Positions 2 through 48,806 are shown, counted from the first letter of the stretch. The stretch is 64,000 nucleotides of DNA from Candidatus Heimdallarchaeota archaeon (GCA_019058275.1 JAHLVW010000050.1:12834-76833), one strand, 5' to 3'. A program made the numbers and translations. Notes: generated from the sequence alone by a model not told the origin.

Positions 2-1192
2 ATTGCAGGAGTTTGTGCATTGGGGTTATTGTTTCTGATTTTCTTAATTAGTAGATACAGGAAATTTAAGACCAATGAGTATGTAATCAGATTTAGAAAT
101 GGTAAAATAAAATCAGCTGGAAAAGGTGGCAGATGTTTTCTTATGCCCATAATAGATGAAATAGTGGTTATACCTACAACAACCCAACAAACATTTCTTG
201 AGGCAAAAGAAAAAGTTCTTTCAAGAGAATTTCAAGACGTATCTGTAAATGCGTTTGTATTCTGGAAAGTCATTAAACCTGACGTAGCCTTTACTGCTGT
301 CTCATGGAATGTAAGAGAAACTGATTACATTGAGACGATCATTAAAAACGCAGCAGAAAGTATTATTCGTACAACATGTGCAAATATGCCTTTAGAAGCA
401 ATTATTAGAGAAAGAAATGAAATCATTACTGCTGTATCAAAAGAGCTGCACGATTTGTTAGCTGATATGGGCATCGTTGTCATTTCCGTTGAAATTAGAG
501 ATGTTGAAGTATTGAATCCAACACTCAAATCAAATATGGAAGCTACAAAACAGATAAACGAAGAAGAAACTGCAAAACTAAGAAGAGCTAAAATGGAAGA
601 AGTTACCAGACTAAGAGATCTAGAAGTTACAAGAAAAACAGGAGTTCAAGAACAATCAGTTCAATTAGTAATACAAAAGGAAGCTAAAAACAGAGAAATT
701 CAGATTCAAAAACTTGAAATGAATAGAACTGAAATTGAAGCTGATACATTGCGAAAGAAAGTTACAATTGAAGCAGATGCAGAATATGAAAGAATGAAAA
801 GAATAGCTGACGGTGAACGAGCACAGCTAATTGCTAAAGCTCAAGGTGAAGCTGCAGCTGTAAAAGAGAGACTTATAGCTGAAGCTGATGGTATTCTTGA
901 ACAAGTTCAATCATTATCTCAAGCAGATCCCAAATTCTTCCAACTTAAAATAGTTGAAATGCTTCCTGAGATCTACAGACAATTAAATGTAGACAAAATG
1001 TTTGTTATGGGCGATGGGCAGCAAGCATTTTCAAGTATAGCTGAATCAATCATACCATTCCTAACTGTTCTTCCAGAGATCACTGGCAGAAGTCTTGCTT
1101 TCTCAAAAGAAGTATCTGAAACAGTAACAACGAAAGCAAATACAAAAGATAAGAAACAACTACCTGCTGCAAAGAAAGTTGAGAAAAAATAG
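2..1192 (+). CDS. SPFH/band-7 (flotillin-like) protein, 5'-truncated by window edge
   Basis: N-terminal TM, SPFH-like core (EYVIRFRNG...GIVVISVEIRDV) and EA-rich coiled-coil tail (EADAEYE, KAQGEAAA, AEADG). The frame is open upstream of the track start at 20 (IAGVCAL) to the window edge. Adjacent NfeD-like gene is the usual partner. Confidence 0.88.
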   Translation: MAGVCALGLLFLIFLISRYRKFKTNEYVIRFRNGKIKSAGKGGRCFLMPIIDEIVVIPTTTQQTFLEAKEKVLSREFQDVSVNAFVFWKVIKPDVAFTAVSWNVRETDYIETIIKNAAESIIRTTCANMPLEAIIRERNEIITAVSKELHDLLADMGIVVISVEIRDVEVLNPTLKSNMEATKQINEEETAKLRRAKMEEVTRLRDLEVTRKTGVQEQSVQLVIQKEAKNREIQIQKLEMNRTEIEADTLRKKVTIEADAEYERMKRIADGERAQLIAKAQGEAAAVKERLIAEADGILEQVQSLSQADPKFFQLKIVEMLPEIYRQLNVDKMFVMGDGQQAFSSIAESIIPFLTVLPEITGRSLAFSKEVSETVTTKANTKDKKQLPAAKKVEKK

Positions 1193-37359: not shown

Positions 37360-38289
37360 ATGGAAAATCCTTTTAACAACTTCTTATATTTTAAACTTAA
37401 AGTTGATATGATAAGAATGATTGATGAATTCTTTATCCTGAGAAGAGATGGATTACCTTTATTCCATATTACACTGGAAGAGAATTCATATATTATTCAA
37501 ATGCCAACAGATCTTTTTGCAGGTTTTTCCAGTGCAATAGTTGCTTTTGCTTCTGAGCTAGGATCTGGTCATTTATCCAAAATTGAAATAGAAGATCAGA
37601 TTTACGTTTATAAGGTTATGAAAGATTTCATTACAGTAGCAAGAATATCGTCTGATGATGACGAAACAACAGCTGAACATGTAGTGGCAATTCTTTACAG
37701 AGAATTTGTAAGTGAATATAGAGATGAGCTTAAAGACTATGAGGGGACTGTTAGAAGAGATGTGTTCTTCCCCTTTTCTGAAAAGGTAAAAGAGATAATT
37801 GCTAAGTGTGAGAGAATAGCTAAGAAAAACCCTCATCTGCTAGCAAACATACCCCCCAGTATTGAATTAGATGCTATAGAGAAATTAAGTGACTTTTCTG
37901 AAGAACTCGTTGATTTTTTCCCAGAAGCAACTATCAAGCTAACCAAAGAATTTCAAAGGAAGTTACCTGATGATTTAATGAATTATACCATGTTCAAATT
38001 AGGGAAAGAAGTTGGTAAGGATGTTGCTCAAAAGAAAATCAAAAAGAAAGTGAATGATAAATCACTCATGAAGTTACTTAAGAAAATCAGTGTTTGTTCT
38101 TTAGATGAAAATATTGTTACTCTTCGAATCTGTCCTTTCTGTAGAGGAAGAGAAACAGAAGAACATGATTGTGATTTCGTTGCAGGATTTATTGAAGGAG
38201 CATATAACGATTCAAGTATTTCAGCAAGAGAGATCAATTGCCATGCTGTTGGTGATAAGCATTGTAAATTTAGAATTTACAAAAATTAA
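37360..38289 (+). CDS. Longin-like + V4R domain fusion protein
   Basis: IDEFFILRRDGLPLFH...LFAGFSSAIVAFASEL (Asgard longin-like); C-terminal CPFC...CDFVAGFIEG...EINCHAVGDKHCKF (V4R). Start probably internal (MIRMID). Confidence 0.75.
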   Translation: MENPFNNFLYFKLKVDMIRMIDEFFILRRDGLPLFHITLEENSYIIQMPTDLFAGFSSAIVAFASELGSGHLSKIEIEDQIYVYKVMKDFITVARISSDDDETTAEHVVAILYREFVSEYRDELKDYEGTVRRDVFFPFSEKVKEIIAKCERIAKKNPHLLANIPPSIELDAIEKLSDFSEELVDFFPEATIKLTKEFQRKLPDDLMNYTMFKLGKEVGKDVAQKKIKKKVNDKSLMKLLKKISVCSLDENIVTLRICPFCRGRETEEHDCDFVAGFIEGAYNDSSISAREINCHAVGDKHCKFRIYKN

Positions 38290-38307
38290 TGATTTTATGA
38301 TTCAATT

Positions 38308-39777
38308 CTAGATTTTTACTTCTTTATAGAAATCAGGATGATACCTTACAGTTCTACTTTTTCCTTGTCCATAGATTTCTAATTTTAGCTTATTTACTAA
38401 TTTAATCTCATCTAATATAAACAAATCATTATCAAGACCTCGTTGGAAGAGATCAAAACTATAAAGTGAATCATAAAGATCTTTCTTGAAATCTTCTTCA
38501 TTCTTAACAAATTCAGGTTCAACAGATAAAATGATTTTTGGTCTGAAATTTTCTCTAGTAACAAGTACTTCCCAAAGATTTACTTTTCCTGAATTGAATT
38601 CTTTACGTAGTAATTGATCGAAAATAATCGCTGAAAGCCTGATAATTCCTAGATTTATTATGCTATCAGTTCTTCCAATGATCTTTACTTTTGGACCATC
38701 TTCTCCACAACTACATTCATCTGATGAAACAATCTTTATTGAATCTCTAACACGATAACGAATCATTGGTAAAGCTTCTTTGAAATCGGTTATTACCATT
38801 TCTCCGGTCATTCCCTTCTCAGCTTCTGAAAAAAGAACCGCTTCTGGGACATATTCGGGATCATTAGCTTCTTTTTCCAATTCTTTTTCTGGAATTATTT
38901 CCATTATCGCATTCTCACTTGGAAAGTGCATACCATTATGTTCTTGACATTCATATCCTCCACTAAATCCTTCTGTGAATGCAAAAAGATCAAATGCTTC
39001 AAGACCCCATTTATCTTCAATTGCTTTTCTGAAAGGATCCAATGATTCTCCTCCAAAGAATCCATGAGTCATGTCTTTGAAAATATTTTTAGGATAAATC
39101 TTCTTTATTTTTGTAGCAATTGAAGCTATTCTAAGCTTGATACTTTTTTGTATTTCAGCTTGTCTTTTCAATATTTTAGGAGTATTTTCAGCTACTTCTT
39201 CTGCCATTCTTAGTGCAAGAGATGGTGTTCCTAATATAACAGTAGGTTTTCGTTTCATCAACAAACCAAAACCATCTTGTACATATTCAGGCGTAAATGC
39301 TAAAACTTCAATAGGATATCCTAAATCACCAGTATTTTGTAGCAATTTAAATGGAGCAATTCCTGAGATAAAAGGAGGAGGTAGAACTATAGATAGAACT
39401 CTTGCTTTAGCTGAAACGAATTTTAGGAGTGTTTTAGCTAGTCCAATTCCAGCTATCTTATAATCATTAAATGTCCAAGGTATCCACTTCTTATTACCCA
39501 TTGACCCAGATGTCGTATACCAAAAACCAACTGTTTCTGTTAAGATTATGTCTTCAACAGTATTGTTTTCCCAAGTAATTCTTAAATCATCAGCACTTAT
39601 GAAAGGTAGTGATTTTAATCCTTTGTAGCCTTTTAATTTAGAAATATCAACTTTTGTTTCCTTCCACTTGTTATGATAGAGTGCTGATTTGTAGGCTTTT
39701 TGTAATAACTCAGTATCATCTATCCGTTTCTCATGAGCATTATAGAGTTCTTGGTATTGGGACAAACATTTCAACAT
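38308..39777 (-). CDS. Phenylacetate-CoA ligase/GH3-like adenylating enzyme
   Basis: TTSGSMGNKKWIP, FGGESL, FAFTEG, PMIRYRVRD, IGRTD. Confidence 0.75.
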   Translation of the reverse strand: MLKCLSQYQELYNAHEKRIDDTELLQKAYKSALYHNKWKETKVDISKLKGYKGLKSLPFISADDLRITWENNTVEDIILTETVGFWYTTSGSMGNKKWIPWTFNDYKIAGIGLAKTLLKFVSAKARVLSIVLPPPFISGIAPFKLLQNTGDLGYPIEVLAFTPEYVQDGFGLLMKRKPTVILGTPSLALRMAEEVAENTPKILKRQAEIQKSIKLRIASIATKIKKIYPKNIFKDMTHGFFGGESLDPFRKAIEDKWGLEAFDLFAFTEGFSGGYECQEHNGMHFPSENAIMEIIPEKELEKEANDPEYVPEAVLFSEAEKGMTGEMVITDFKEALPMIRYRVRDSIKIVSSDECSCGEDGPKVKIIGRTDSIINLGIIRLSAIIFDQLLRKEFNSGKVNLWEVLVTRENFRPKIILSVEPEFVKNEEDFKKDLYDSLYSFDLFQRGLDNDLFILDEIKLVNKLKLEIYGQGKSRTVRYHPDFYKEVKI

Positions 39778-39862
39778 CCTTAAATTACATTACCGTTATA
39801 TGAGCTATAGTTGGATATATAAAAATAGCTTAAACCGTAAAAATGTGTAAACTTCGTTATAT

Positions 39863-41254
39863 ATGTTGGTGTTAAAGAAAGTGGTACTTGACAGCATTAA
39901 ATCCTTTGTAATAAAACAAAGAATGAGACAAATAAGAAAAGAGCTTTCAGATATCAATCTAGAGAAAGTAGAAAAACAAATAGCTAATGTTAATTGGCGT
40001 ACAATTAATGCTTTTAAGAAATTTAATATTATAAAAGAACTCAAACATAGTGCTGAAAATTCTCCCTATTATCGAGATAAAATCCCAGAACTCATTAAAG
40101 GGATTAACTACAAGAATGCATTATCAATTATTCCTAAATTACCTTTTACAACTTCAGCAGAAGTCTCAGTTAATTCAAAACAATTCCTTGCGGTGCCTAA
40201 ATCTGAAGTTGCAGGATTGCATTTCACCTATGGCACAACTGGTGGTAAAAAAACTATCTATAATACAAAAAGAGATCTTAATTTAATCAATTATAGTTAC
40301 ACTTTGGGTTTCATCAATTGTGGTATAGAGAAGAAGGACATTGCTCAAATTGTTTATTCATTTGGTGTATGGCAATTAGCTGAATACATACTAAGTGCTC
40401 TTAGATCAGTAGGGATAATTACTATTCCAACAGGTAACTATGTTAGTTTTCAAGATCAAGAAGAGTATATTGAAAAATTTGGTACTAATGTTATTTTTGG
40501 CACTCCTTCTTATGTTTATAATCTATCAAGAGAGATAGATCTTTCAACTAAGGTAAAGGCAAATATGAAAGCTATACTTGTAGGTGGTGAAGGACTGCCT
40601 GAGCACCGAAGAAAGGTCATTGAAGAAAAGCTTGGGGGTGAAGTTTTCATAAACTATGGGTTAAATGAATTTGGTGGGGGTATTGGTTCTGAATGTAAAT
40701 GCCATAATGGTTATCACATCTTCCCAAATGTTATTTATGAAATAATAGATCCAAAAACTACTGAACCTGTTGAAAGGGAGGAATATGGTGAGCTAGTTTT
40801 GACTTCTCTACGAAGAGAAGCTATGCCTTTGATTAGATATCGTACTGGTGATATTACAAGAATAATTGATGGTGAATGTGATTGTGGTTTAAAGCTTCCT
40901 CGCATTGATCAGCTTAAAGGAAGAACAGATGACAGAGTAGTAATCGGAGCAGCAGAGAAATACTACCCTATAGTTTTTGATAAGCTATTTGATTCAGTTG
41001 ATGAAATTAAAGACTATTGGATTGAAGTTGTTAGTGAAAATGATAGAGATTCATTAAAAACATATATTTCTGCGAGAAAACCATCAGAGAAGCTTAAAGC
41101 TAAAATTCTTGAAAAATTCTACTCACTTGATTCACTTAAAATAGATATTGAAACTACGAAGACTGTTAATAAGCCAGAAATCATTTTCATTGACAAATTG
41201 CCCAATAGTGCTAAAAGAAGAAGATTAGTTGATAAACGAAAGTTCAAAACGTGA
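39863..41254 (+). CDS. Phenylacetate-CoA ligase (PaaK)-like adenylating enzyme
   Basis: SPYYR, LPFTT, TYGTTG, GTPSY, YGLNE, MPLIRYRTGD, GRTDD. Confidence 0.82.
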   Translation: MLVLKKVVLDSIKSFVIKQRMRQIRKELSDINLEKVEKQIANVNWRTINAFKKFNIIKELKHSAENSPYYRDKIPELIKGINYKNALSIIPKLPFTTSAEVSVNSKQFLAVPKSEVAGLHFTYGTTGGKKTIYNTKRDLNLINYSYTLGFINCGIEKKDIAQIVYSFGVWQLAEYILSALRSVGIITIPTGNYVSFQDQEEYIEKFGTNVIFGTPSYVYNLSREIDLSTKVKANMKAILVGGEGLPEHRRKVIEEKLGGEVFINYGLNEFGGGIGSECKCHNGYHIFPNVIYEIIDPKTTEPVEREEYGELVLTSLRREAMPLIRYRTGDITRIIDGECDCGLKLPRIDQLKGRTDDRVVIGAAEKYYPIVFDKLFDSVDEIKDYWIEVVSENDRDSLKTYISARKPSEKLKAKILEKFYSLDSLKIDIETTKTVNKPEIIFIDKLPNSAKRRRLVDKRKFKT

Positions 41255-41261
41255 GAACTGA

Positions 41262-41894
41262 ATGAATAGGTCAGTCAAGATGAAAAAAGGTGTTAAAATT
41301 ACCCTAATAGTACTTAGTTCAATTTTAATAGTAACAGGAATTATAATTCCAACACTACCTTTTATGATGAAATGGGATCCAGCTTATGGCACTCCTGTTC
41401 TTGAGTTTCCTTTTGAAAATCCTGATGATATTATTTGGCTAAGAGGTTATAATCTCATAGAGGAAGAATCTGATGGAGGGCATCATATAGGCATCGATCT
41501 TGAGATTGAAAATGCTTCAACAGTGATTTCCCCTTGTACTGGAACAGTCGGATTGATTAGCTCATCAATAAACACAAACAAAGGACATATCATGATTAGT
41601 ATAAATATTAGAATAAATCTTGTATGGTCAATTATGCTTGTTTTCGAACCATATTCAAATTCCACTGAATTTCACGAAACTCAATTATCCAATATCTATG
41701 TCAAATCTGGACAAAGAGTTGAAGTGGGGGATGAAATTGGCATTCTTCTCAACGGTGGCGAATTTCCACACATACATTTCACTGTAAGAAAATATTTCAA
41801 AGATGTTTGTCCATTTGACTATTCTTCAGATGAATCGAAGGCAGCGTTTCTTGAGATAGCAGAACGGACCAATAGTACAATTTGCTATCCTTAA
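41262..41894 (+). CDS. Membrane-anchored M23-family metallopeptidase-like protein
   Basis: N-terminal TM; HIGID (HxxxD), VKSGQRVEVGDEIG, PHIHF (HxH). Confidence 0.75.
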   Translation: MNRSVKMKKGVKITLIVLSSILIVTGIIIPTLPFMMKWDPAYGTPVLEFPFENPDDIIWLRGYNLIEEESDGGHHIGIDLEIENASTVISPCTGTVGLISSSINTNKGHIMISINIRINLVWSIMLVFEPYSNSTEFHETQLSNIYVKSGQRVEVGDEIGILLNGGEFPHIHFTVRKYFKDVCPFDYSSDESKAAFLEIAERTNSTICYP

Positions 41895-41899
41895 ATTCG

Positions 41900-41928
41900 T
41901 AACTTTATAAATTACAATGATAAAGTTA
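41900..41928. promoter_or_regulatory. 9-bp inverted repeat between M23 stop and SRAP start (terminator or operator)
   Basis: TAACTTTAT-N11-ATAAAGTTA. Confidence 0.4.
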
Positions 41929-41980
41929 TGAATTAGAATAGCTATAATTTTACTATAAGTATTTCATGAGTTGATGTCCT

Positions 41981-42709
41981 TTGTGTGGAAGATTTGCTAG
42001 GTTTTCACCAGCCCATGTTTTTAGAATGCTCTTTCAATTAGATGAATTTGCTGATCTACCTCCACAGTATAACATTGCTCCCGGTCAAGATATTTACGCT
42101 GTGAGAGGAATTATCATGAGAGATGAACAAGCAAGAAGCGCTTCTACAGGAAGTTTCCAAAAGGAGGTTGCCCCTTTAAGATGGGGATTGATTCCCTTCT
42201 GGTCAAAAGAACCTAAGAGTGGTCCAATTAACGCTAGATCTGAAACGGTTACTGAAAAACCGACCTTTAAGGCATCATTTAAACAACGTCGTTGCTTAAT
42301 TCCAGCTGATGGTTTCTATGAATGGCAGAAAAAGAGCGAAGGACCCAAGCAACCCTTTTTCATTCATATGAAAGACAAAAAACCCTTTGCTTTAGCAGGC
42401 ATCTGGGATATTTGGAAAAATCTCGATGGAGACAAAATTGAATCTTGTTCTATTTTAACAACTGAGCCAAATGAAGTTGTTAAACCAATTCATAAACGCA
42501 TGCCCGTTATTATCGAACCCAAGAAATTTGATACTTGGTTAGATACCTCTAAACAGAACTTAGACGAAGCATTAGCTATGCTTAAACCATATGATGCAAA
42601 GGCAATGGAAGCACATACAGTCAATCTTTATGTTAATAGCCCAAGTAACAAAGGAGAGAAATGCATCGAAGAGTTCCATGAGAAATACAAACAGCAGAAA
42701 TTATTCTGA
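41981..42709 (+). CDS. SOS response-associated peptidase (SRAP/YedK/HMCES family, abasic-site protector)
   Basis: MCGRF with catalytic Cys2, YNIAP, WGLIP, NARSET, RRCLIPADGFYEW, IHKRMP; C-terminal QQKLF. Confidence 0.95.
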   Translation: MCGRFARFSPAHVFRMLFQLDEFADLPPQYNIAPGQDIYAVRGIIMRDEQARSASTGSFQKEVAPLRWGLIPFWSKEPKSGPINARSETVTEKPTFKASFKQRRCLIPADGFYEWQKKSEGPKQPFFIHMKDKKPFALAGIWDIWKNLDGDKIESCSILTTEPNEVVKPIHKRMPVIIEPKKFDTWLDTSKQNLDEALAMLKPYDAKAMEAHTVNLYVNSPSNKGEKCIEEFHEKYKQQKLF

Positions 42710-42915
42710 ACAGCTGATTTTTCGAAAAATTTTTCCACGGAATTAAAGCATTCCATGCATTTCTGTCGACAAAAATACTTGCAGTTACCCCTCTCACTTT
42801 GAGTCTTTTATTTATTAGAAAATGGACTGTATATTCTTCGAAATTGAACTGAGGATTGTGTTAACACCACTTGAATCTGGAGAAAGGAGCAATTTAACCG
42901 GAGACCACGGAGACT

Positions 42916-45840
42916 GTGAACCAAAAACAAGAGGTTAGGTTCTTACTGACTGACCTTGATTACAAGATACCAGAAGAAGAGGGTCAGCTGCCTGTGATTA
43001 TACTATATGGGAAAACAAAAGATGCTCAAGTTCTTGTAAAGGTTCGAGGTTTTATACCCTATCTCTATATGAAGAAGAATAAAGATATTGAGTTTGTCAT
43101 ACAAAATGACCCACTAATCAGCCGTTGGCAGAAAGGAATGGAAGAAGTCACTCTAAGACGATACTTCTGGGCTGGTGAAAGATTGAAACTCATCAAGTTG
43201 TATGGAGTAAACCCTCGAGAGATTAATTCCATTGGAAGAGAATTAGAGAAGCTGGGTCTCGAAACGTTTGAAACTGATATTCCTTATCTTAAACGATTTT
43301 TAATTGATAATAATATCAAATGCTTGAATGTGATAGCAGTAAAGGCCTCTAAAGTTGAACGAAGGGAGAAAGAACTTTATCTCGAAGCAAATTTCGAAGA
43401 TATCTACACGGTATCAGACTCAGAAATTACTACTCCTGTATTGTTCTACCCACTAAAGGTTATGGCTATCAATGTAAAGATTGCTCGAGATAATGAAACT
43501 GTTCAAGAATTATTACGGAAGAAGAATAGGCCAATCATTGCTATTAGTGCTATTTGGGGCACAAGCGCTAAACCAGAAAACGGTAAATTGTTTTTACTAC
43601 AAGAAAATTCAGAAGAGGGCGAAAAAAGGGTCATAATGGAGTTCATTAGCTTTCTTCAAGAGGTTCAACCAGATATCTTATGTACCTTTCAGGGAGACAG
43701 CTTTGATTTACCATATCTTTACCATCAGATGAATGTCTTGGGAATTCCTTCTTTCTTGTTATCATTATTTAGGGACGAACCAAGCTACTTCTCCAGACAG
43801 TTATTATCTTATCGAATGAAAGGAAGAATGTCTTTCGACCTTGCTTTGAGAACATGGGGTATTCATCCAGCTTCTGGCAAAAAAGGGTTGTACGATGTTT
43901 CAGAAGAGGTTCTCGGTAGAGGGAAATTTGGGATCAAGCAAGACAACAAATATGATTTCATCTCACATTCAACTGGACTTGGAGAAGCAAATGCAGACAT
44001 AGCAGTTTGGAGCCTCTGGAAGAGAGGGATATTTCACGGGGAAAAAGAAAGCTTAAGTTTACTAGCAAAACAATGTTTTTACGACTGCAAACTCATTTTT
44101 GATCTTTATTGGAAACTTGGGATGACTGGTTGGATTGAAACATTGCGAGTAACAGGTTTTCCAACTGCAGAAAGCAATAGCTGCACAGAACGTTTGAACG
44201 GAGAATTTGAACTGATGCGCTACATGCGCAGAAAGGGGATTTTGATACCAAATCGTCCAGATCCTAAACAAGTCGAAAAGAATAGAATAATTCGTGAAAT
44301 GCATCCCCATGAAGGAGGAACAGTTCTATATCCAAAAGGATCTCTTCACACAGGAGTTCTGATTGCTGATTTCAGATCAATGTATCCGAGTGTTATGATT
44401 GCTGAAAATATCGGAGGGGAAACCCTTAAGCAGTGGATAGAAGCGAGTGACTATGGCGATCCAAAGAAGCTGTTTGATAAGCAATCACGATCGTGTCTAT
44501 CAATTATGGAAGAAACATTGATTAGTAAAAGAATCCACAAGAAGGATGAAATAAAACGACTAACGAAGCTGCTAGAAGAAACAAGCAATCATGATGAAAA
44601 AAGAAAAATCCAAGATACAATTGGAATTCTCGAGAGAGAGCAAAACTCAATGAAAATAGTAGCGAATTCCATGTACGGAGCTCATTTTTACATTCGCAGT
44701 CGCTTCTATACTCAGACATTGGCGTCGGCTATTAGTGATAGCGCTAGAACATACCTTTTGGGCATCGAAGAGAGCCTTGAAGGTGTTTCCAAGAGAATCA
44801 CCCCTTGTGAGTTGATTTATGGAGATACTGACTCTACTTTTATCAAAATCCTAGATGAATCTATTTTCAATGAGATTTACGCTGAAACCAGTCTTGAGAA
44901 AAAAGAACGGCTCATAGGCAAGCTAATGCGCACTGTTAATTCGATTATTAAAGAGCTCAATAGCAAACTTCCAAATCCTCTCGAGTTAAAGTTTGAAGAC
45001 ATCGTTTATCGAGTTATCTTTAAACCAGATAGAAAGAAAGCCTACAGCTATGTCAGCCTTCTTACTGATGATTTCAAAGTCAAGGGGTTTGAAGCTGTTC
45101 GTTCTGATTGGTCCCCTCTTGCAAGAATCGCTCAAAGAAAAGTGTTGGACATTTTACTTCGGCATCCAAAAAACTCTCGAGATGGTGAGAGTGAGTTTCA
45201 AACTGCACGACAATTTTTGAGGGCACTTGGTGTAAAAGTGCTTCAAATGTCCACAGAAGAATTGCTTCCTAAAGTGGTAATTCTCTCACCTATTCGTCGC
45301 CCACCTAAAGATTACAAAGCAAAAGCACCTGCAGTCCAAGCTTTTGTCGATTTCGCCCGACGGGAGCAGCTACAAGCAGAGAAGGAATGGATGGACTACG
45401 ACAAGTTCCCATGGGTAATCATTGCTGGAGAAGGACTTGTTTATGATCGAACTAGGCATCCAAAATACGTAGAGGACATCGACCGAGAACACTATGTTAC
45501 CGAAATGCTTCGCTGTTGTGAAGATCTGAGGGTAAAAGTTTCTTTGAAAGAGGTCAAAGGAGCGCTTCCGGTTGGCAGATTAGATCACTTCTTTGAAAAT
45601 GCTCAAGATTTAAGAGCTGAAGAAGATGACAAACTGACAATTATTGTAGATGAGGATCAGCTCATGTTAGAAAAAGAAGAGTCAGTTATCATTGAGATCA
45701 TTAAACCAGTTCAAAAAGGTGAATTGGAATGGAAAAACAAAAGTAAAGGTATACGAAGGAACGTCAAAAGACAGCGAGCTGCTGGTCAAGCAGCTTTAAC
45801 GTTATATGCTAACTCTCCTGATGATCAGGTTGAAGAATAA
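42916..45840 (+). CDS. polB: Family B DNA polymerase with degenerate 3'-5' exonuclease
   Basis: Polymerase motifs ADFRSMYPS, KIVANSMYG, YGDTDS, KKAY, KGFEAVRSDW intact; ExoI reads AINVK instead of AFDIE. Confidence 0.92.
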   Translation: MNQKQEVRFLLTDLDYKIPEEEGQLPVIILYGKTKDAQVLVKVRGFIPYLYMKKNKDIEFVIQNDPLISRWQKGMEEVTLRRYFWAGERLKLIKLYGVNPREINSIGRELEKLGLETFETDIPYLKRFLIDNNIKCLNVIAVKASKVERREKELYLEANFEDIYTVSDSEITTPVLFYPLKVMAINVKIARDNETVQELLRKKNRPIIAISAIWGTSAKPENGKLFLLQENSEEGEKRVIMEFISFLQEVQPDILCTFQGDSFDLPYLYHQMNVLGIPSFLLSLFRDEPSYFSRQLLSYRMKGRMSFDLALRTWGIHPASGKKGLYDVSEEVLGRGKFGIKQDNKYDFISHSTGLGEANADIAVWSLWKRGIFHGEKESLSLLAKQCFYDCKLIFDLYWKLGMTGWIETLRVTGFPTAESNSCTERLNGEFELMRYMRRKGILIPNRPDPKQVEKNRIIREMHPHEGGTVLYPKGSLHTGVLIADFRSMYPSVMIAENIGGETLKQWIEASDYGDPKKLFDKQSRSCLSIMEETLISKRIHKKDEIKRLTKLLEETSNHDEKRKIQDTIGILEREQNSMKIVANSMYGAHFYIRSRFYTQTLASAISDSARTYLLGIEESLEGVSKRITPCELIYGDTDSTFIKILDESIFNEIYAETSLEKKERLIGKLMRTVNSIIKELNSKLPNPLELKFEDIVYRVIFKPDRKKAYSYVSLLTDDFKVKGFEAVRSDWSPLARIAQRKVLDILLRHPKNSRDGESEFQTARQFLRALGVKVLQMSTEELLPKVVILSPIRRPPKDYKAKAPAVQAFVDFARREQLQAEKEWMDYDKFPWVIIAGEGLVYDRTRHPKYVEDIDREHYVTEMLRCCEDLRVKVSLKEVKGALPVGRLDHFFENAQDLRAEEDDKLTIIVDEDQLMLEKEESVIIEIIKPVQKGELEWKNKSKGIRRNVKRQRAAGQAALTLYANSPDDQVEE

Positions 45841-46720
45841 CTTCTTTTATCTTTGGTCCTTCGCCTGTTAACTCTTTTATGAATTCCCTAGTTAATTCTA
45901 CTACGGGAGTATCATGTGCTGCTTTACTGCTTCCTAAATCAACAAATGTACAATTTAGCAAAGTATTTGCTACTCTTAAAGCAAAATCAGCTTCATGGAC
46001 TTTATCTAAGGATGCTCCAACTAGAATGAGACGTTGATTAATCTTTGGTAAAAGATCCCAACTATTATATTTGGCCATATCAAATATGACTTCTCGCAAT
46101 TTTCTTGGGTTGGCTTCTCCAATGGATCGCATATATGCTTCTGATTGTTCTGGCTCTCTCTTTCTATCTACCCAAATATATCCAAGTAAAAATAGCAATA
46201 AAGGTTTCACCATTCGGATAAAGAATATTGGTGTTATCTTAAACATAAAAATTAGCCATCTTGGATAATGAAATTCTACTCCTGGGCCAACAAGTACAGA
46301 TCCCAATGGAGTAATTGTTTGTGTAGCTAAATTTTCTAAAATTTGGGTTCCGCCTAAAGAGCTTGCAACACAAACATATTTTGTTTTGTCTAACCCAAGA
46401 GCTTTTTCTACATCGGAGAGATCTTCACTAATACGTTTTATTGTTACCTCAGCTTTTTTTACTAATTTACTTGATGTTTTTTCTCGGCTTTCAATATAGT
46501 ATACTTTGTAATTTTCGTTTAGTTCTTCTACAACCTTCTCCCATCGTGGAAACACTGTAACCATTCCAGGTATGAAGTAAATAGCAATATCTTCTTTGGG
46601 TTGTTTAACTTTATCAAAAATAAGCACATATAGTTCACTACCATCAGAAACTTTCACAAATTGCTCCTTTGCACTTCGTTCATATTCAGATTTTGTTTCC
46701 TTTGCTTTCTTTCGACCCAT
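45809..46720 (-). CDS. Alpha/beta hydrolase
   Basis: FIPGM oxyanion region, ASSLGG nucleophile elbow, GASLD, C-terminal AAHD. Confidence 0.78.
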   Translation of the reverse strand: MGRKKAKETKSEYERSAKEQFVKVSDGSELYVLIFDKVKQPKEDIAIYFIPGMVTVFPRWEKVVEELNENYKVYYIESREKTSSKLVKKAEVTIKRISEDLSDVEKALGLDKTKYVCVASSLGGTQILENLATQTITPLGSVLVGPGVEFHYPRWLIFMFKITPIFFIRMVKPLLLFLLGYIWVDRKREPEQSEAYMRSIGEANPRKLREVIFDMAKYNSWDLLPKINQRLILVGASLDKVHEADFALRVANTLLNCTFVDLGSSKAAHDTPVVELTREFIKELTGEGPKIKEVILQPDHQES

Positions 46721-46829
46721 CTTGATTACACCATCGTTATATTTTATTGGCTTTATCTGCTTTTACCTTTAAGAAATAAATATGTTATTCTAATTTGCAT
46801 AAGTTTTAGTTAGTTGGATGAATCGTTTC

Positions 46830-47861
46830 TTACCTAGACCTTTTCTTCTTTGTTTTTTCTTTCGCTGCTTCTAGAGCTTTTTGTCGTTTTTCTTTTTGAT
46901 GTTCCTCTGCTTCCTTTTCGTGTTTTGCTAGCCACATTAATGTAATATCTTCTATTGAGATTCCAGAAGTTTTAATGTCGATAAAGTTACCACTTTCAAT
47001 AACTCTATCATGAATATCACCTGCTTCTTTTTTACTGCCAGCAAAGAAACGACACATACTACCTATCATTTCATATCGAGGCCAAATATCTTCAGCTTCT
47101 TTCTTAGACATTTCACCTTTAGGGATAACCATGATATCAAACATATAATTGAATTCAGATTGGAGTTCAGACACGTCGATCATTCCTCGCACAGTGCCAC
47201 CTAATGCTATTAGAAGAATTTTATCACAGAGAACATCTACAACTTCGGGATCATGGTCAACAAGAACAAGTGTTCGCTCCCTCCCTTGTTTCTCTAGAAA
47301 GTCTAATACAACTTGTTTCCTACGAAAATCAATACCATTTGTAGGTTCATCTGCAAATAGTATTTCGGGATTCTTTTGCAAACCAACACATAATCTAGTT
47401 ATTGCTTTCTGTCCTTCGCTAAAAGTCTCAAGTTTTGTATTCCATAAATGATCTAATTGTAATTCCTCGATGAAATCTTTTGCTAAAGCCATATCTCCAT
47501 TTGTTACTTTTACGAAGAAATTGAGAGTTTGTTTTAATGTTAGTTTCTTTTGGAAATCCATAGCAGGTGATACAAAACTAATTCTCTTCCTAACTTCTTT
47601 TATTTCTTTAACTATGTCATATCCACAAACTTGTGCATCTCCACCATCTGGTGAATAGATAGTAGAAAGGGTTTTCAGCAAAGTAGTTTTTCCAGAACCA
47701 TTGGGACCAAGTAATGCGAGAGATAATCCCTTTGGTAAATCAAACGTTATGCCGTCAAGGATTCTCTTTTTACCAATAGTTACTCCATCCTTTTTTCGTG
47801 TGAACAGACTAGTAGGAAATTCTTTGATTAATCCGTCAGATTGAATAATTTGGTTTACCAT
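46830..47861 (-). CDS. ABC transporter ATP-binding protein
   Basis: GPNGSGKT, FSEGQ signature, ILFADEPT, H-loop. Confidence 0.92.
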   Translation of the reverse strand: MVNQIIQSDGLIKEFPTSLFTRKKDGVTIGKKRILDGITFDLPKGLSLALLGPNGSGKTTLLKTLSTIYSPDGGDAQVCGYDIVKEIKEVRKRISFVSPAMDFQKKLTLKQTLNFFVKVTNGDMALAKDFIEELQLDHLWNTKLETFSEGQKAITRLCVGLQKNPEILFADEPTNGIDFRRKQVVLDFLEKQGRERTLVLVDHDPEVVDVLCDKILLIALGGTVRGMIDVSELQSEFNYMFDIMVIPKGEMSKKEAEDIWPRYEMIGSMCRFFAGSKKEAGDIHDRVIESGNFIDIKTSGISIEDITLMWLAKHEKEAEEHQKEKRQKALEAAKEKTKKKRSR

Positions 47862-47873
47862 TTTTTGTCCTCC

Positions 47874-48806
47874 TTAATAAAACTCAATGGTTCCTCTCCT
47901 TCGAGCAATTTGAGTCATCCATTTCACAAAGAAGTAAGTGCCAACAGCAAATACAGCACAAACTGCTATGTTAATTAAAATCATATGACCATATGTCAGA
48001 CCTGCAAAGTCTGTTTTATCACTGAAAAATGAGACATCCGGGAATAGAGCTGATGTATCATGTTCGATAAGATATTTTCTGAATGCATATTGACCTGTTA
48101 CAATAGGTATACATACAGCAATTACAGGCCACCACCAACCAAATTGTGAGAAAAATTCAATCATGAAGAAATACCCTCCAATAATTCGAATAATGTATAG
48201 CATAATTCGAACAATTGTTGTAGTTTGTTTTACTAGTAAAGTTATAGACCCCATTAACAGACTAATGCACATCATGAATAAATAAGAAAAGAAGATTAAT
48301 GGTATTAGCATAAAGAACTCTTGAGCAGAATGTGGAAGAAGATTCATACCTAATTCTTCATTTTTTAATAATGCAAATGTTGGTAGAGTTGTTATAAGGA
48401 ATATTACAAAAAACTTCAAGCTTGATGATATGTATCTCCCAACCATTACTCCCAATGTATCAACATTATTTGTTATAAGATAACCCATTGTTCCACGAGC
48501 TGATTCCTCTCTTAAACAAAATGCTGTTTCCTCATAATTACCAGTAAACATTGTCCAATAGGCTGATGAAGTCAACAGAAACAATGAAAACGAATAATCA
48601 GGTGCAAAAGCACTATCACCTGAACCAACTGATAGACCAAGAAATCCATAAGCAACGAGATTAGTGATTGTCCATAAGAGTTGGATAACAATATCTGATT
48701 TGTATTGCCAATCAGTAATTAGATTTCTTTTAACAGTTGCTAATGTTACAACAAAAGTAGATGATAGAGCCCGTTCATGATTCGTATCTGATTTGAAAAC
48801 ACTCAC
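47874..48806 (-). CDS. ABC-2 type permease
   Basis: Six TMs, EESARGT, terminal ARRRGTIEFY; adjacent ATPase. Confidence 0.85.
   Translation of the reverse strand: MSVFKSDTNHERALSSTFVVTLATVKRNLITDWQYKSDIVIQLLWTITNLVAYGFLGLSVGSGDSAFAPDYSFSLFLLTSSAYWTMFTGNYEETAFCLREESARGTMGYLITNNVDTLGVMVGRYISSSLKFFVIFLITTLPTFALLKNEELGMNLLPHSAQEFFMLIPLIFFSYLFMMCISLLMGSITLLVKQTTTIVRIMLYIIRIIGGYFFMIEFFSQFGWWWPVIAVCIPIVTGQYAFRKYLIEHDTSALFPDVSFFSDKTDFAGLTYGHMILINIAVCAVFAVGTYFFVKWMTQIARRRGTIEFY

What the first reader, a model, noticed from the sequence alone, without database searches (positions are those of the whole stretch)
41981..45840. SRAP + proofreading-dead PolB: candidate Asgard error-prone lesion-bypass cassette
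Seen: a complete SRAP gene is followed 206 bp later, on the same strand, by a 974-aa PolB. Its catalytic motifs are intact (DFRSMYPS, KxxxNSMYG, YGDTDS). ExoI has lost both acidic residues (AINVK for AFDIE), the ExoII Asn is Gln (FQGDSFD) and the ExoIII Tyr is missing (KQCFYD). Both proteins carry clamp-binding-like motifs near the C-terminus (SRAP QQKLF; PolB GRLDHFF and QAALTLY). The polB gene looks more GC-rich than its flanks. Known: SRAP/HMCES crosslinks abasic sites in ssDNA and in bacteria often sits with UmuCD-type error-prone polymerases; eukaryotic Pol zeta and archaeal PolB2 are exonuclease-dead B-family enzymes linked to damage tolerance. Inference: a damage-tolerance or mutagenesis module in which a B-family enzyme takes the role usually played by a Y-family one, possibly relevant to the origin of Pol zeta-like function.
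Basis: partly seen in the sequence, partly recalled or inferred. Interest (0 to 1): 0.8.

Follow-up and report, generated by a model that had tools for sequence, protein, structure and literature searches.

The report
SRAP beside proofreading-dead PolB paralogue
In one family of Heimdall-group Asgard archaea, a gene for an abasic-site-shielding SRAP protein always sits just upstream of an extra family-B DNA polymerase that lost proofreading but kept its polymerase site. This is probably a separately evolved DNA-damage-tolerance pair, not an ancestor of eukaryotic Pol zeta.

Summary
An intact SRAP gene (41981-42709) lies 206 bp upstream, on the same strand, of a 974-aa PolB (42916-45840). The PolB has intact polymerase motifs A, B and C. 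Its ExoI Asp and Glu, ExoII Asn and ExoIII Tyr are replaced. PolB GC3 is in the 99th percentile of the genome, SRAP GC3 in the 97th.

The PolB is a lineage-specific paralogue ("PolB-A"). Its exonuclease-proficient sister ("PolB-B") is encoded elsewhere in the same genome. Both nest inside a Heimdall-specific PolB clade whose closest solved relatives are Thermococcales PolB3 enzymes. All PolB-A orthologues checked are exonuclease-dead and polymerase-intact. They evolve about as slowly as PolB-B.

SRAP lies directly upstream in all 13 distinct loci where upstream DNA exists, down to 50% PolB identity. One divergent subclade has lost the linkage.

The genome also encodes a Y-family polymerase, PolD and a PolB1-type enzyme. 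PolB-A is therefore an addition, not a Y-family replacement. It is neither a PolB2 nor related to Pol zeta.

SRAP enrichment near exonuclease-less PolB2 genes is already published (PMC11791011). This is a convergent variant of that theme. The scan found the same cassette before in another genome.

The function (abasic-site shielding plus proofreading-free bypass or extension) is inferred. No expression or biochemical data exist.

The parts
41981..42709 (+). SRAP (HMCES/YedK-type) gene, 242 aa. The TTG start gives the N-terminus M-C-G-R-F. The catalytic residues Cys2, Asn84, Glu114 and His171 are present.
   Evidence: The Pfam SRAP match is 2.1e-71 over the full model. The protein aligns to HMCES and YedK structures. 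C2, N84, E114 and H171 are invariant in 9 orthologues.
42689..42706 (+). Conserved extreme C-terminus of SRAP, K-Q-Q-K-L-F. It is a short PIP-like candidate clamp-binding peptide.
   Evidence: The motif is conserved in 10 orthologues down to 55% identity, and Q238 and L241 are invariant. The PCNA complex prediction gave weak support only: 0.60 against a best control of 0.35.
42718..42734 (+). Two T5 runs directly after the SRAP stop codon. They are candidate archaeal oligo-T termination signals.
   Evidence: The runs are read directly from the sequence. The T-rich stretch recurs at this place in orthologues. Termination itself is inferred, not shown.
42767..42799 (+). Conserved intergenic element CGACAAAAATACTT, then 10 nt, then CTCTCACTT. 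It is a BRE/TATA-like candidate promoter and initiator for polB, about 135 nt upstream of the start codon.
   Evidence: The element is nearly invariant across 10 orthologous spacers whose other bases have diverged. The genome holds only 3 exact copies. The other two copies head a shared unannotated sequence of about 90 nt.
42916..45840 (+). PolB-A, a 974-aa family-B DNA polymerase with a GTG start. It is an exonuclease-dead paralogue of the Heimdall-type PolB.
   Evidence: Evidence comes from Pfam, best PDB sequence hits to Thermococcales PolB, an AF2 model with pLDDT 79, Foldseek TM 0.76 to KOD/9N and trees. Orthologues start with ATG at the same codon.
43462..43482 (+). ExoI motif region M-A-I-N-V-K-I. 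The canonical Asp is Asn and the canonical Glu is Lys.
   Evidence: See the motif alignment. The Glu-to-Lys change (E188K) is fixed in at least 85% of PolB-A against PolB-B.
43684..43719 (+). ExoII motif region T-F-Q-G-D-S-F-D-L-P-Y-L. The Asn is Gln and the catalytic Asp is retained.
44065..44106 (+). ExoIII motif region A-K-Q-C-F-Y-D-C-K-L. The canonical Tyr position is Gln and the Asp is retained.
44368..44391 (+). Polymerase motif A, D-F-R-S-M-Y-P-S, intact and including the steric-gate Tyr.
44653..44679 (+). Polymerase motif B, K-I-V-A-N-S-M-Y-G, intact.
44818..44835 (+). Polymerase motif C, Y-G-D-T-D-S, intact with both Asp residues.
45787..45807 (+). PIP-like motif Q-A-A-L-T-L-Y in the disordered C-terminal tail. 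The second aromatic residue of the canonical PIP box is missing.
   Evidence: Q958 is invariant across 30 PolB-A and PolB-B sequences. PolB-B carries the canonical Q-T-K-I-S-K-F-F at the same place. The tail 886-974 has pLDDT below 50.

Best explanation
**What it is.** The locus is a conserved two-gene DNA-damage-tolerance pair, restricted to one family of Heimdallarchaeia.

**Origin (inferred from trees).**
- An ancestor of this family duplicated its Heimdall-type PolB.
- One copy (PolB-B) kept 3'-5' proofreading.
- The other (PolB-A, this gene) lost the metal-binding ExoI Asp and Glu, plus the ExoII Asn and ExoIII Tyr. It kept a fully intact polymerase site and acquired fixed substitutions around the palm and fingers.
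- From the base of the PolB-A clade it sits directly downstream of an SRAP gene. That SRAP groups with a database cluster in which the few named sequences are bacterial, not with the SRAPs of other Heimdall families.

**Proposed mechanism (inferred, not shown).**
[quoted passage not shown] This protects them from cleavage.
- PolB-A is tethered to PCNA through its C-terminal PIP-like tail. Because it cannot excise what it has just inserted, it performs the proofreading-free step.
- That step could be insertion opposite the abasic site or its peptide remnant, extension from a distorted terminus left by the Y-family polymerase, or filling of the post-replicative gap.
- The two genes probably have separate promoters.
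For: **Shown**
- SRAP is intact, with all catalytic residues.
- PolB-A lacks the ExoI Asp and Glu in all 23 orthologues inspected (20 PolB-A rows and P0054/P0055; P0244). Motifs A and C are intact in all, and motif B in all but the derived P0054/P0055 pair.
- PolB-A and PolB-B are sister clades inside a Heimdall-specific clade. SH-aLRT support is 99-100 under both LG+G4 and the C20 mixture model.
- PolB-A occurs only in family f1 among 83 class genomes. The one exception is a probable mis-binned contig.
- PolB-A diverges at the same rate as PolB-B between the same genome pairs, 53-71% against 62-70% identity. It is therefore under purifying selection.
- SRAP is directly upstream on the same strand in 13 distinct loci. 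These include the basal GF308 lineage, where SRAP is 50% identical. The flanking genes differ between these loci.
- SRAP genes in other Heimdall families have unrelated neighbours.
- Fixed differences between PolB-A and PolB-B concentrate in residues 401-600 of the palm and fingers: 16 of 34, against 5 in the 270-residue exonuclease domain.
- The C-terminal tail is disordered and ends in a conserved Q-x-x-L-x-x-[FY].

**Weak**
- PCNA against the SRAP tail (residues 200-242) scored ipSAE 0.60, with a best control of 0.35.
- That mark was reached by 58 of 80 solved complexes and 2 of 110 mismatched pairs. At 0.60 or under, only 7 of those 80 solved complexes and both mismatches passed.
- The runs agree in at least 76% of contacts, and partner pLDDT is at least 39.
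- PIP-PCNA complexes are solved, so the pass may come from memory.

**Established knowledge**
- SRAP, HMCES and YedK crosslink abasic sites in ssDNA (PMC9436759, PMC7313144).
- SRAP genes accompany Pol IV, Pol V and ImuABC in bacteria (PMC3765255). They are enriched near polB2 in archaea and bacteria (PMC11791011).
- Exonuclease-less PolB2 is the damage-inducible translesion polymerase of Sulfolobus (PMC7390963, PMC7544198).
Against: - No expression, induction or biochemical data exist.
- The genes look like separate transcription units. T-runs follow the SRAP stop, and a conserved promoter-like element lies in the spacer.
- The wider block (V4R, two AMP-binding genes, M23, SRAP, PolB, ABC transporter) is also syntenic among close kin. 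Part of the linkage may therefore be plain inheritance.
- All PolB-A loci trace to one evolutionary event, so there is no statistical replication.
- One derived subclade (P0055) has no SRAP neighbour.
- Exonuclease-dead versions of the same Heimdall PolB arose independently in Ca. Heimdallarchaeum and in P0091. The Heimdallarchaeum genomes have no SRAP gene at all. Exonuclease loss therefore does not require SRAP.
- The polymerase motifs are identical to those of the proofreading paralogue. Nothing shows an opened, lesion-accommodating active site.
- In human cells HMCES restrains, rather than promotes, mutagenic translesion synthesis. The sign of the SRAP-polymerase relationship is therefore unknown.
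Confidence: 0.55

Rival explanations
1. The adjacency is inherited gene order without functional coupling. PolB-A is a proofreading-free repair or gap-filling polymerase, in line with the known repair roles of PolB3-type enzymes. SRAP works on its own, as in other Heimdall families.
For: - The genes appear to have separate promoter and terminator signals.
- The surrounding block is also syntenic in near relatives.
- SRAP occurs without PolB-A in families f2, f5 and f6.
- PolB-A occurs without neighbouring SRAP in P0055.
- Exonuclease-dead Heimdallarchaeum PolB exists in genomes that lack SRAP.
- Thermococcus PolB is needed for repair rather than replication (PMC6759347).
Against: - The pair stays together at 50% PolB identity while genes on both sides are replaced.
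- In every f1 genome SRAP gave a single Pfam match. Wherever the contig reaches far enough, that match lies next to PolB-A.
- The PolB-linked SRAPs form their own clade, distinct from other Heimdall SRAPs. This suggests recruitment at about the time of the duplication.
- The independent SRAP-PolB2 association shows the same pairing recurring (PMC11791011).
Confidence: 0.25
2. PolB-A is a Pol alpha-like replication enzyme. It would be an exonuclease-dead B-family polymerase that extends primers or synthesises short stretches on the lagging strand, with proofreading supplied by PolD, PolB1 or PolB-B. SRAP adjacency would be incidental.
For: - Pol alpha is also an exonuclease-dead B-family enzyme (PMC7544198).
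- The genome has several other polymerases able to proofread: PolD, a PolB1-type enzyme and PolB-B.
- PolB-A evolves as slowly as PolB-B.
- PolB-A has unusually high GC3, as do actin and SecY.
- The Heimdall clan has a eukaryote-like primase (PMC12680538).
Against: - PolB-A is confined to one family. A core replication role would be expected to be wider.
- One 90%-complete genome of the genus shows no PolB-A, although its whole block is missing and may simply be unassembled.
- PolB-A has no Cys-rich C-terminal domain for a B-subunit or primase.
- This reading does not explain the persistent SRAP neighbour.
Confidence: 0.12
3. The pair was acquired horizontally or belongs to a mobile element. 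The GC-rich composition would mark foreign DNA.
For: - SRAP and PolB-A lie at the 97th-99th percentile of GC3.
- The highest-GC3 genes include TnpB/IS605 transposon genes.
- The linked SRAP groups with bacterial-type sequences.
Against: - PolB-A is the sister of the resident PolB-B and mirrors its branching. GF308 is basal in both clades.
- The GC3 excess of PolB-A persists in orthologues with different backgrounds. SRAP's excess does not.
- None of the nine genes scanned with Pfam (37360-48806) is an integrase or transposase; tRNA genes and repeats were not searched. The same chromosomal neighbours recur in relatives.
- At most, the SRAP gene alone may be of bacterial origin.
Confidence: 0.05

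Closest known systems
Archaeal and bacterial PolB2 (Dpo2) mutasome loci, often with an SRAP neighbour (PMC11791011, PMC7544198, PMC7390963)
   Same: Both have a B-family polymerase without working proofreading, encoded next to an SRAP abasic-site protein. Both occur in genomes that also hold replicative polymerases and a Y-family enzyme. Both have a presumed damage-tolerance role.
   Different: - PolB-A keeps both motif C aspartates (YGDTDS) and a full-length exonuclease fold with an ExoIII region.
- It scores only 38 and 29 bits on NCBIfam's two 'type B DNA-directed DNA polymerase' models, against cut-offs of 516 and 692. Whether those models represent PolB2 was not checked.
- It has no iRadA or PPB2 neighbours.
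- It descends from a different PolB clade by a recent duplication.
Thermococcales PolB3 enzymes (KOD, 9N, Pfu, Tgo) and their engineered exo-minus variants
   Same: These are the best sequence matches (E 1e-40) and the best structural matches (Foldseek TM about 0.76). The domain order is the same, and so are motifs A, B and C. The N-terminal residues aligned to the uracil-pocket positions look retained.
   Different: - PolB-A is only 21-23% identical to them.
- The natural enzymes proofread. Here the exonuclease site was lost in nature and the loss has been kept by selection.
- PolB-A has a long disordered C-terminal tail.
- It reaches no NCBIfam equivalog cut-off.
Eukaryotic Pol zeta (Rev3) acting with HMCES at abasic sites
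   Same: Both are exonuclease-dead B-family polymerases that coexist with Y-family polymerases. Both occur with an SRAP/HMCES protein that bears a C-terminal clamp-binding-type motif.
   Different: - There is no phylogenetic link. PolB-A is a young Heimdall-family paralogue.
- PolB-A has no Cys-rich C-terminal domain and no Rev7-type partner is evident.
- The published archaeal relative of Pol alpha, delta and zeta is the Baldrarchaeia PolB-DP2CTD fusion (PMC12680538).
- In human cells HMCES restrains Pol zeta-dependent synthesis.
Bacterial SRAP (YedK/YoqW) loci with Pol IV, Pol V or ImuA-ImuB-DnaE2 (PMC3765255)
   Same: SRAP is encoded beside an error-prone or translesion polymerase. The SRAP of this locus groups with a database cluster whose few named members are bacterial.
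   Different: The partner here is a B-family polymerase, not a Y- or C-family one. No LexA-type regulator is present, and the host is an archaeon.

Membership tests
SRAP (PF02586; HMCES/YedK) | Full-length match to the family profile above the curated cut-off | tested here: met
   The score is 240.3 bits against a cut-off of 27.1, covering profile positions 1-214 of 214.
SRAP (PF02586; HMCES/YedK) | N-terminal Cys2 nucleophile together with the conserved Asn, Glu and His of the active site | tested here: met
   The N-terminus reads M-C-G-R-F. C2, N84, E114 and H171 are invariant in 9 orthologues and align to HMCES and YedK.
SRAP (PF02586; HMCES/YedK) | Covalent crosslinking to abasic sites in ssDNA | not testable with these tools
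   This needs a biochemical assay.
Family-B DNA polymerase (RNA/DNA-primed) | Polymerase motifs A (DxxSLYPS), B (Kx3NSxYG) and C (YGDTDS), plus KxY | tested here: met
   DFRSMYPS, KIVANSMYG, YGDTDS and KKAYSY are all present. Pfam DNA_pol_B scores 149 bits.
Family-B DNA polymerase (RNA/DNA-primed) | Active 3'-5' exonuclease site: ExoI DxE, ExoII Nx2-3(F/Y)D, ExoIII Yx3D | tested here: not met
   The ExoI Asp is Asn and the Glu is Lys. The ExoII Asn is Gln. The ExoIII Tyr is Gln. Only the ExoII and ExoIII Asp residues remain. The fold is retained.
Archaeal PolB3 group | Groups with PolB3 reference enzymes rather than with B1, B2 or other groups | tested here: inconclusive
   - The best PDB sequence and fold matches are Thermococcales PolB3.
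- No NCBIfam equivalog cut-off is reached; the best score is 124 bits against a cut-off of 570.
- In my trees the Heimdall clade's nearest outgroup is a set of PolBs with a CxxC C-terminal domain, joined by long branches.
- No curated B1-B10 reference set was available.
PolB2 (Dpo2) mutasome | PolB2-type polymerase: ExoIII absent, one Asp in motif C with a conserved His, and the D(K/R) motif | tested here: not met
   Motif C is YGDTDS with two Asp residues. An ExoIII region is present.
PolB2 (Dpo2) mutasome | Neighbouring iRadA and PPB2 (arCOG07300) genes | tested here: not met
   The neighbours are an M23 peptidase and two AMP-binding enzymes upstream of SRAP. Downstream lie an alpha/beta hydrolase-like gene and ABC transporter genes.
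Pol zeta / Delta-like clade | Cys-rich metal-binding C-terminal domain and placement in the Delta-like clade | tested here: not met
   - The last 150 residues hold only 2 Cys, and the tail is disordered.
- PolB-A nests in a Heimdall-specific clade next to PolB-B.
- Pol delta and Pol alpha are weaker PDB hits, at 1e-15 to 1e-17, than PolB3 at 1e-40.
- No eukaryotic sequences were in my trees.
PIP-box clamp-binding proteins | Q-x-x-[LIM]-x-x-[FY]-[FY] at or near the C-terminus, binding PCNA | tested here: inconclusive
   - PolB-A has Q-A-A-L-T-L-Y-A, so the second aromatic residue is missing. Orthologues have Q-x-x-L-x-x-[FY].
- SRAP ends in Q-Q-K-L-F, a truncated form.
- The complex prediction of PCNA with the SRAP tail gave weak support only, 0.60 against 0.35.

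The most novel reading that the evidence does not exclude
SRAP and PolB-A form a dedicated, physically coupled abasic-site tolerance machine on PCNA. In this reading the SRAP-DNA crosslink, or its peptide remnant, is the specific substrate or landing pad for a proofreading-free B-family polymerase whose palm and fingers have been retuned. It would be an independently evolved counterpart of the HMCES / Pol zeta interplay in the archaeal class most often placed closest to eukaryotes. The system could be reconstituted in vitro.
Probability: 0.2. Interest if true: 0.7.

Novelty: new variant of a known kind. Interest (0 to 1): 0.45.

Why it matters
**What it would show if the reading holds**
- Pairing an abasic-site shield (SRAP) with a B-family polymerase stripped of proofreading would have evolved at least twice in archaea. 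One origin is PolB2. The other is this young duplicate of a proofreading PolB.
- That recurrence would argue that the pairing is a functional solution and not an accident of gene order.

**Why it is experimentally attractive**
- PolB-A and PolB-B are a natural matched pair, 45% identical and encoded in the same genome.
- Comparing them would separate the effect of exonuclease loss from the effect of the 34 fixed substitutions on lesion bypass.

**What it corrects**
- It rules out a tempting over-reading. This enzyme says nothing direct about the origin of Pol zeta.

Tried and rejected
- **RNA evidence.** No RNA holder was listed among public runs; the listed holders are metagenome runs (sediment, marine sediment, cold seep, subsurface) kept as contigs, kind shown as 'DNA?'. 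I did not lay reads.
- **Regulon search.** The conserved spacer element CGACRAAAATACTT has only 3 exact copies in the genome. With one mismatch allowed there are 4 hits, fewer than the 13 hits of the reversed control pattern. The other two copies precede an unannotated sequence, not repair genes. I dropped the idea of a damage regulon operator. The element is more likely a promoter.
- **Rfam.** Scanning the three element-bearing loci gave no match at E of 0.1 or below.
- **Co-absence in G077.** G077 has neither SRAP nor PolB-A. Its AMP-binding neighbour is missing too, so the whole block may be unassembled. I rejected this as evidence for joint loss.
- **G022 contig C220 (another family).** It carries the same AMP-binding, SRAP and PolB block. 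I read it as a mis-binned contig, not as horizontal transfer.
- **Second PCNA.** The extra PCNA on contig C95 looked like a possible dedicated clamp. It is unique to this genome and does not track PolB-A.
- **GC3 excess as recent horizontal transfer.** I rejected this for PolB-A because the excess persists in orthologues. The cause remains open. The top-GC3 genes are a mix of transposon genes, SecY, actin and others.
- **Kazlauskas 2020 supplement.** It gave no group assignment for these Heimdall PolBs.

Full report
**What is at the coordinates.**
- The window is G000:C41:12834-76833 of a 4.12-Mb, 118-contig Asgard MAG.
- ORF 41981-42709 (+) encodes a 242-aa protein that starts M-C-G-R-F from a TTG codon.
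- ORF 42916-45840 (+) encodes a 974-aa protein from a GTG codon, 206 bp further on.
- Pfam assigns the first to SRAP (2.1e-71, full model). It assigns the second to DNA_pol_B (2.5e-43) plus DNA_pol_B_exo1 (1.3e-22).
- The SRAP aligns to the HMCES and YedK structures. It keeps Cys2, Asn84, Glu114 and His171, which are invariant in nine orthologues.
- Orthologues of the PolB begin with ATG at the same codon, and their N-termini are conserved. This supports the GTG start.

**The exonuclease is dead and the polymerase is not.**
- The genome holds three PolB genes:
  - a PolB1-type enzyme on C11 (P0123; NCBIfam NF004417 at 1083 bits against a cut-off of 780);
  - a 926-aa enzyme on C94 (P0030), 45% identical to the gene under study;
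  - the gene under study (P0002).
- P0030 has canonical ExoI (MALDIEV), ExoII (FNGDNFD) and ExoIII (KYSLMD) motifs.
- P0002 has MAINVKI, FQGDSFD and KQCFYD at the aligned positions. ExoI has lost both acidic residues, the ExoII Asn is Gln and the ExoIII Tyr is Gln. The ExoII and ExoIII Asp residues remain.
- Motifs A (DFRSMYPS), B (KIVANSMYG), C (YGDTDS) and KxY are intact.
- An AlphaFold2 model built on 30 sequences has pLDDT 79 and pTM 0.76, with a complete exonuclease fold. Residues 886-974 form a disordered tail.
- The best Foldseek matches are Thermococcales PolB3 enzymes (TM about 0.76 by target), followed by Pol delta. The PDB sequence search gives the same order.

**It is a young paralogue.**
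- Database homologues fall into two sets. "PolB-A" is 50-80% identical to P0002. "PolB-B" is 44-48% identical and includes P0030.
- All 22 PolB-A-type sequences in the alignment (20 PolB-A rows plus P0054/P0055) lack the ExoI Asp and Glu, usually with Lys at the Glu position. All eight PolB-B sequences keep all exonuclease motifs.
- Trees under LG+G4 (62 rows) and under the C20 mixture model (38 rows) recover PolB-A and PolB-B as sister clades. Support is 99-100 SH-aLRT. Both lie within a strongly supported Heimdall-specific PolB clade.
- The GF308 MAG is basal in both clades, as expected for one duplication followed by vertical descent.
- Among 83 species-representative genomes of the class, PolB-A occurs only in family f1 (two genera). 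One contig in a genome of another family also carries it, with the same neighbouring genes, so it is probably mis-binned. The other families hold one homologue at 33-36% identity.
- Between the same pairs of MAGs, PolB-A is 53-71% identical and PolB-B is 62-70% identical. PolB-A is therefore not decaying.
- There are 34 positions fixed differently in A and B. Of these, 16 lie in residues 401-600 (palm and fingers, next to motifs A and B). Only 5 lie in the 270-residue exonuclease domain, one of them the ExoI Glu-to-Lys change. This hints at retuning of the polymerase itself, but it is only a pattern.

**The SRAP linkage.**
- In every f1 genome SRAP gave a single Pfam match.
- It lies directly upstream of PolB-A on the same strand, with a gap of 191-245 bp, in:
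  - G000, G072, G074, G075, G076, G078, G081, G082 and G073 (at a contig edge), plus the mis-binned G022 contig;
  - metagenomic contigs carrying PolB-A orthologues of 50-53% identity;
  - the GF308 MAG, where SRAP is only 50% identical and the 945-aa PolB is exonuclease-dead (ALSLS, FKGDSFT).
- That makes 13 distinct loci.
- Eight further SRAP/PolB-A pairs share the same longest-contig length, so they probably share a contig. I did not verify adjacency for these.
- The pair persists while flanking genes change. Actin, LVIVD or epimerase genes lie downstream. The AMP-binding and M23 genes upstream are present in some loci and absent in others.
- The exception is P0055, a long-branch subclade nested in PolB-A with an altered motif B. 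Its contig has an acetyltransferase upstream.
- SRAP also occurs in families f2, f5 and f6, with unrelated neighbours and no polymerase nearby. The neighbours include a tRNA synthetase, a redoxin, a metallo-beta-lactamase and a GNAT.
- In an SRAP tree, the PolB-linked SRAPs form one clade. It sits within a cluster of database sequences whose few named members are bacterial. A well-supported branch separates it from the other Heimdall SRAPs. This is consistent with separate acquisition. However, the tree is unrooted, most of the comparison sequences are unnamed, and the other Heimdall SRAPs sit on long branches.

**Transcription signals.**
- Two T5 runs follow the SRAP stop codon.
- The spacer holds an element, CGACAAAAATACTT then 10 nt then CTCTCACTT (42767-42799). 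It is almost invariant in ten orthologous spacers that have otherwise diverged.
- The genome has three exact copies of the 14-mer. The other two head a shared, unannotated sequence of about 90 nt with no Rfam match.
- I read the element as a BRE/TATA-like promoter for polB. If so, the two genes are neighbours with their own signals, not a proven operon.

**Clamp-binding motifs.**
- PolB-B ends in the canonical Q-T-K-I-S-K-F-F.
- PolB-A has Q-x-x-L-x-x-[FY] at the same place, and the Gln is invariant in all 30 sequences.
- The SRAP ends in a conserved K-Q-Q-K-L-F.
- A complex prediction of the main PCNA (contig C69) with SRAP residues 200-242 gave weak support:
  - The score was 0.60, with a best control of 0.35.
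  - That mark was reached by 58 of 80 solved complexes and 2 of 110 mismatched pairs. At 0.60 or under, only 7 of those 80 solved complexes and both mismatches passed.
  - The runs agree in at least 76% of contacts, and partner pLDDT is at least 39.
  - PIP-PCNA complexes are solved, so the pass may reflect memory.

**Composition.**
- GC3 is 0.309 for SRAP and 0.343 for PolB-A, against a genome ORF mean of 0.224 (97th and 99th percentiles). PolB-B (0.225) and the PolB1-type gene (0.207) are ordinary.
- The PolB-A excess recurs in four orthologous loci. The SRAP excess does not. This is therefore not a recent transfer.
- The ten highest-GC3 ORFs scanned (nine of the top ten plus one more) include TnpB-type transposon genes, SecY and a helicase with an MrfA zinc-binding domain. 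An ORF I take to be actin also ranks high, though it was not itself scanned.
- The cause is unresolved.

**Context in the cell.**
- The genome also encodes PolD and a Y-family polymerase. The Y-family enzyme is present in 76 of 83 class genomes, including all of f1.
- PolB-A is therefore an addition to, not a substitute for, a Y-family enzyme.
- The same Heimdall PolB lost its exonuclease motifs independently in Ca. Heimdallarchaeum (AFKIFI, FKGNSID) and in P0091. The Heimdallarchaeum genomes lack SRAP.

**Comparison with what is known.**
- SRAP beside mutagenic polymerases is established for bacteria (PMC3765255).
- A 2025 study reports SRAP enriched near polB2 in archaea and bacteria (PMC11791011).
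- PolB2 is an exonuclease-less translesion polymerase (PMC7544198, PMC7390963).
- PolB-A fails the PolB2 definition. It has two motif C aspartates, an ExoIII region and no iRadA or PPB2 neighbours.
- It also fails the Pol zeta definition. It has no Cys-rich C-terminal domain and sits in a Heimdall-specific clade.
- The published archaeal relative of Pol alpha, delta and zeta is a different enzyme (PMC12680538).
- I found no paper describing this Heimdall paralogue or its SRAP linkage.
- The scan itself found the same cassette earlier in another genome, and noted the Heimdallarchaeum exonuclease loss. My independent tests agree with both.

**Verdict.**
- The damage-tolerance reading is plausible and partly supported, by conservation and by analogy.
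- The claims of Y-family replacement and of a Pol zeta origin are not supported.
- The finding is a new variant of a known theme and of moderate interest.
- PolB-A and PolB-B offer a clean natural pair for experiments.

Noticed in passing
G000:C26:4741-4830 (-) and G000:C42:16215-16304 (+); loci L055 and L057: Two copies, 90% identical over 90 nt, of an unannotated sequence. Both begin with the same promoter-like CGACAAAAATACTT element found upstream of polB. Neither has a Rfam match, and no ORF follows the C26 copy. They may be a two-copy small RNA gene.
   Followed up: partly
P0085/P0087 (Ca. Heimdallarchaeum; G006/G007) and P0091: The single Heimdall-type PolB of these lineages has independently lost the ExoI, ExoII and ExoIII residues (AFKIFI, FKGNSID; SIRINP) while keeping motifs A, B and C. 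The G006 and G007 genomes have no SRAP gene.
   Followed up: partly
G000:C95:4407-5207 (locus L060:1417-2223): A second PCNA gene, 54% identical to the main PCNA on C69, is found only in this genome among the family. G076 has a different extra copy. It may have come from a mobile element.
   Followed up: partly
window 42916-45840 and orthologues in L034, L035, L037 and L084: The GC3 of PolB-A is 0.08-0.12 above its flanking genes in three of the four other lineages (less clearly in L084), as well as here. PolB-B and the PolB1-type gene have ordinary GC3. I have no explanation.
   Followed up: partly
P0054/P0055 (metagenome contigs): A long-branch subclade nested in PolB-A has altered motif A (DFFSMYPS) and motif B (KGVAAFIYG). 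In P0055 there is no SRAP neighbour. A 1113-aa acetyltransferase lies upstream and a 56-aa Zn-ribbon-like ORF downstream.
   Followed up: no
G022:C220 (locus L016/L040): A 5.4-kb contig in a genome of another family carries the same AMP-binding, SRAP and PolB-A block at 56-67% identity. It is probably mis-binned.
   Followed up: partly
G000:C101:48111-50216 (locus L091): A 702-aa helicase with an MrfA-type Zn-binding domain, a domain named after the MrfA protein, is among the highest-GC3 genes of the genome.
   Followed up: no
window 335-362 of PolB-A (nt about 43918-44001): A variable insert of about 25 residues lies between ExoII and ExoIII. It is present only in the closest PolB-A orthologues and has pLDDT below 50.
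   Followed up: no
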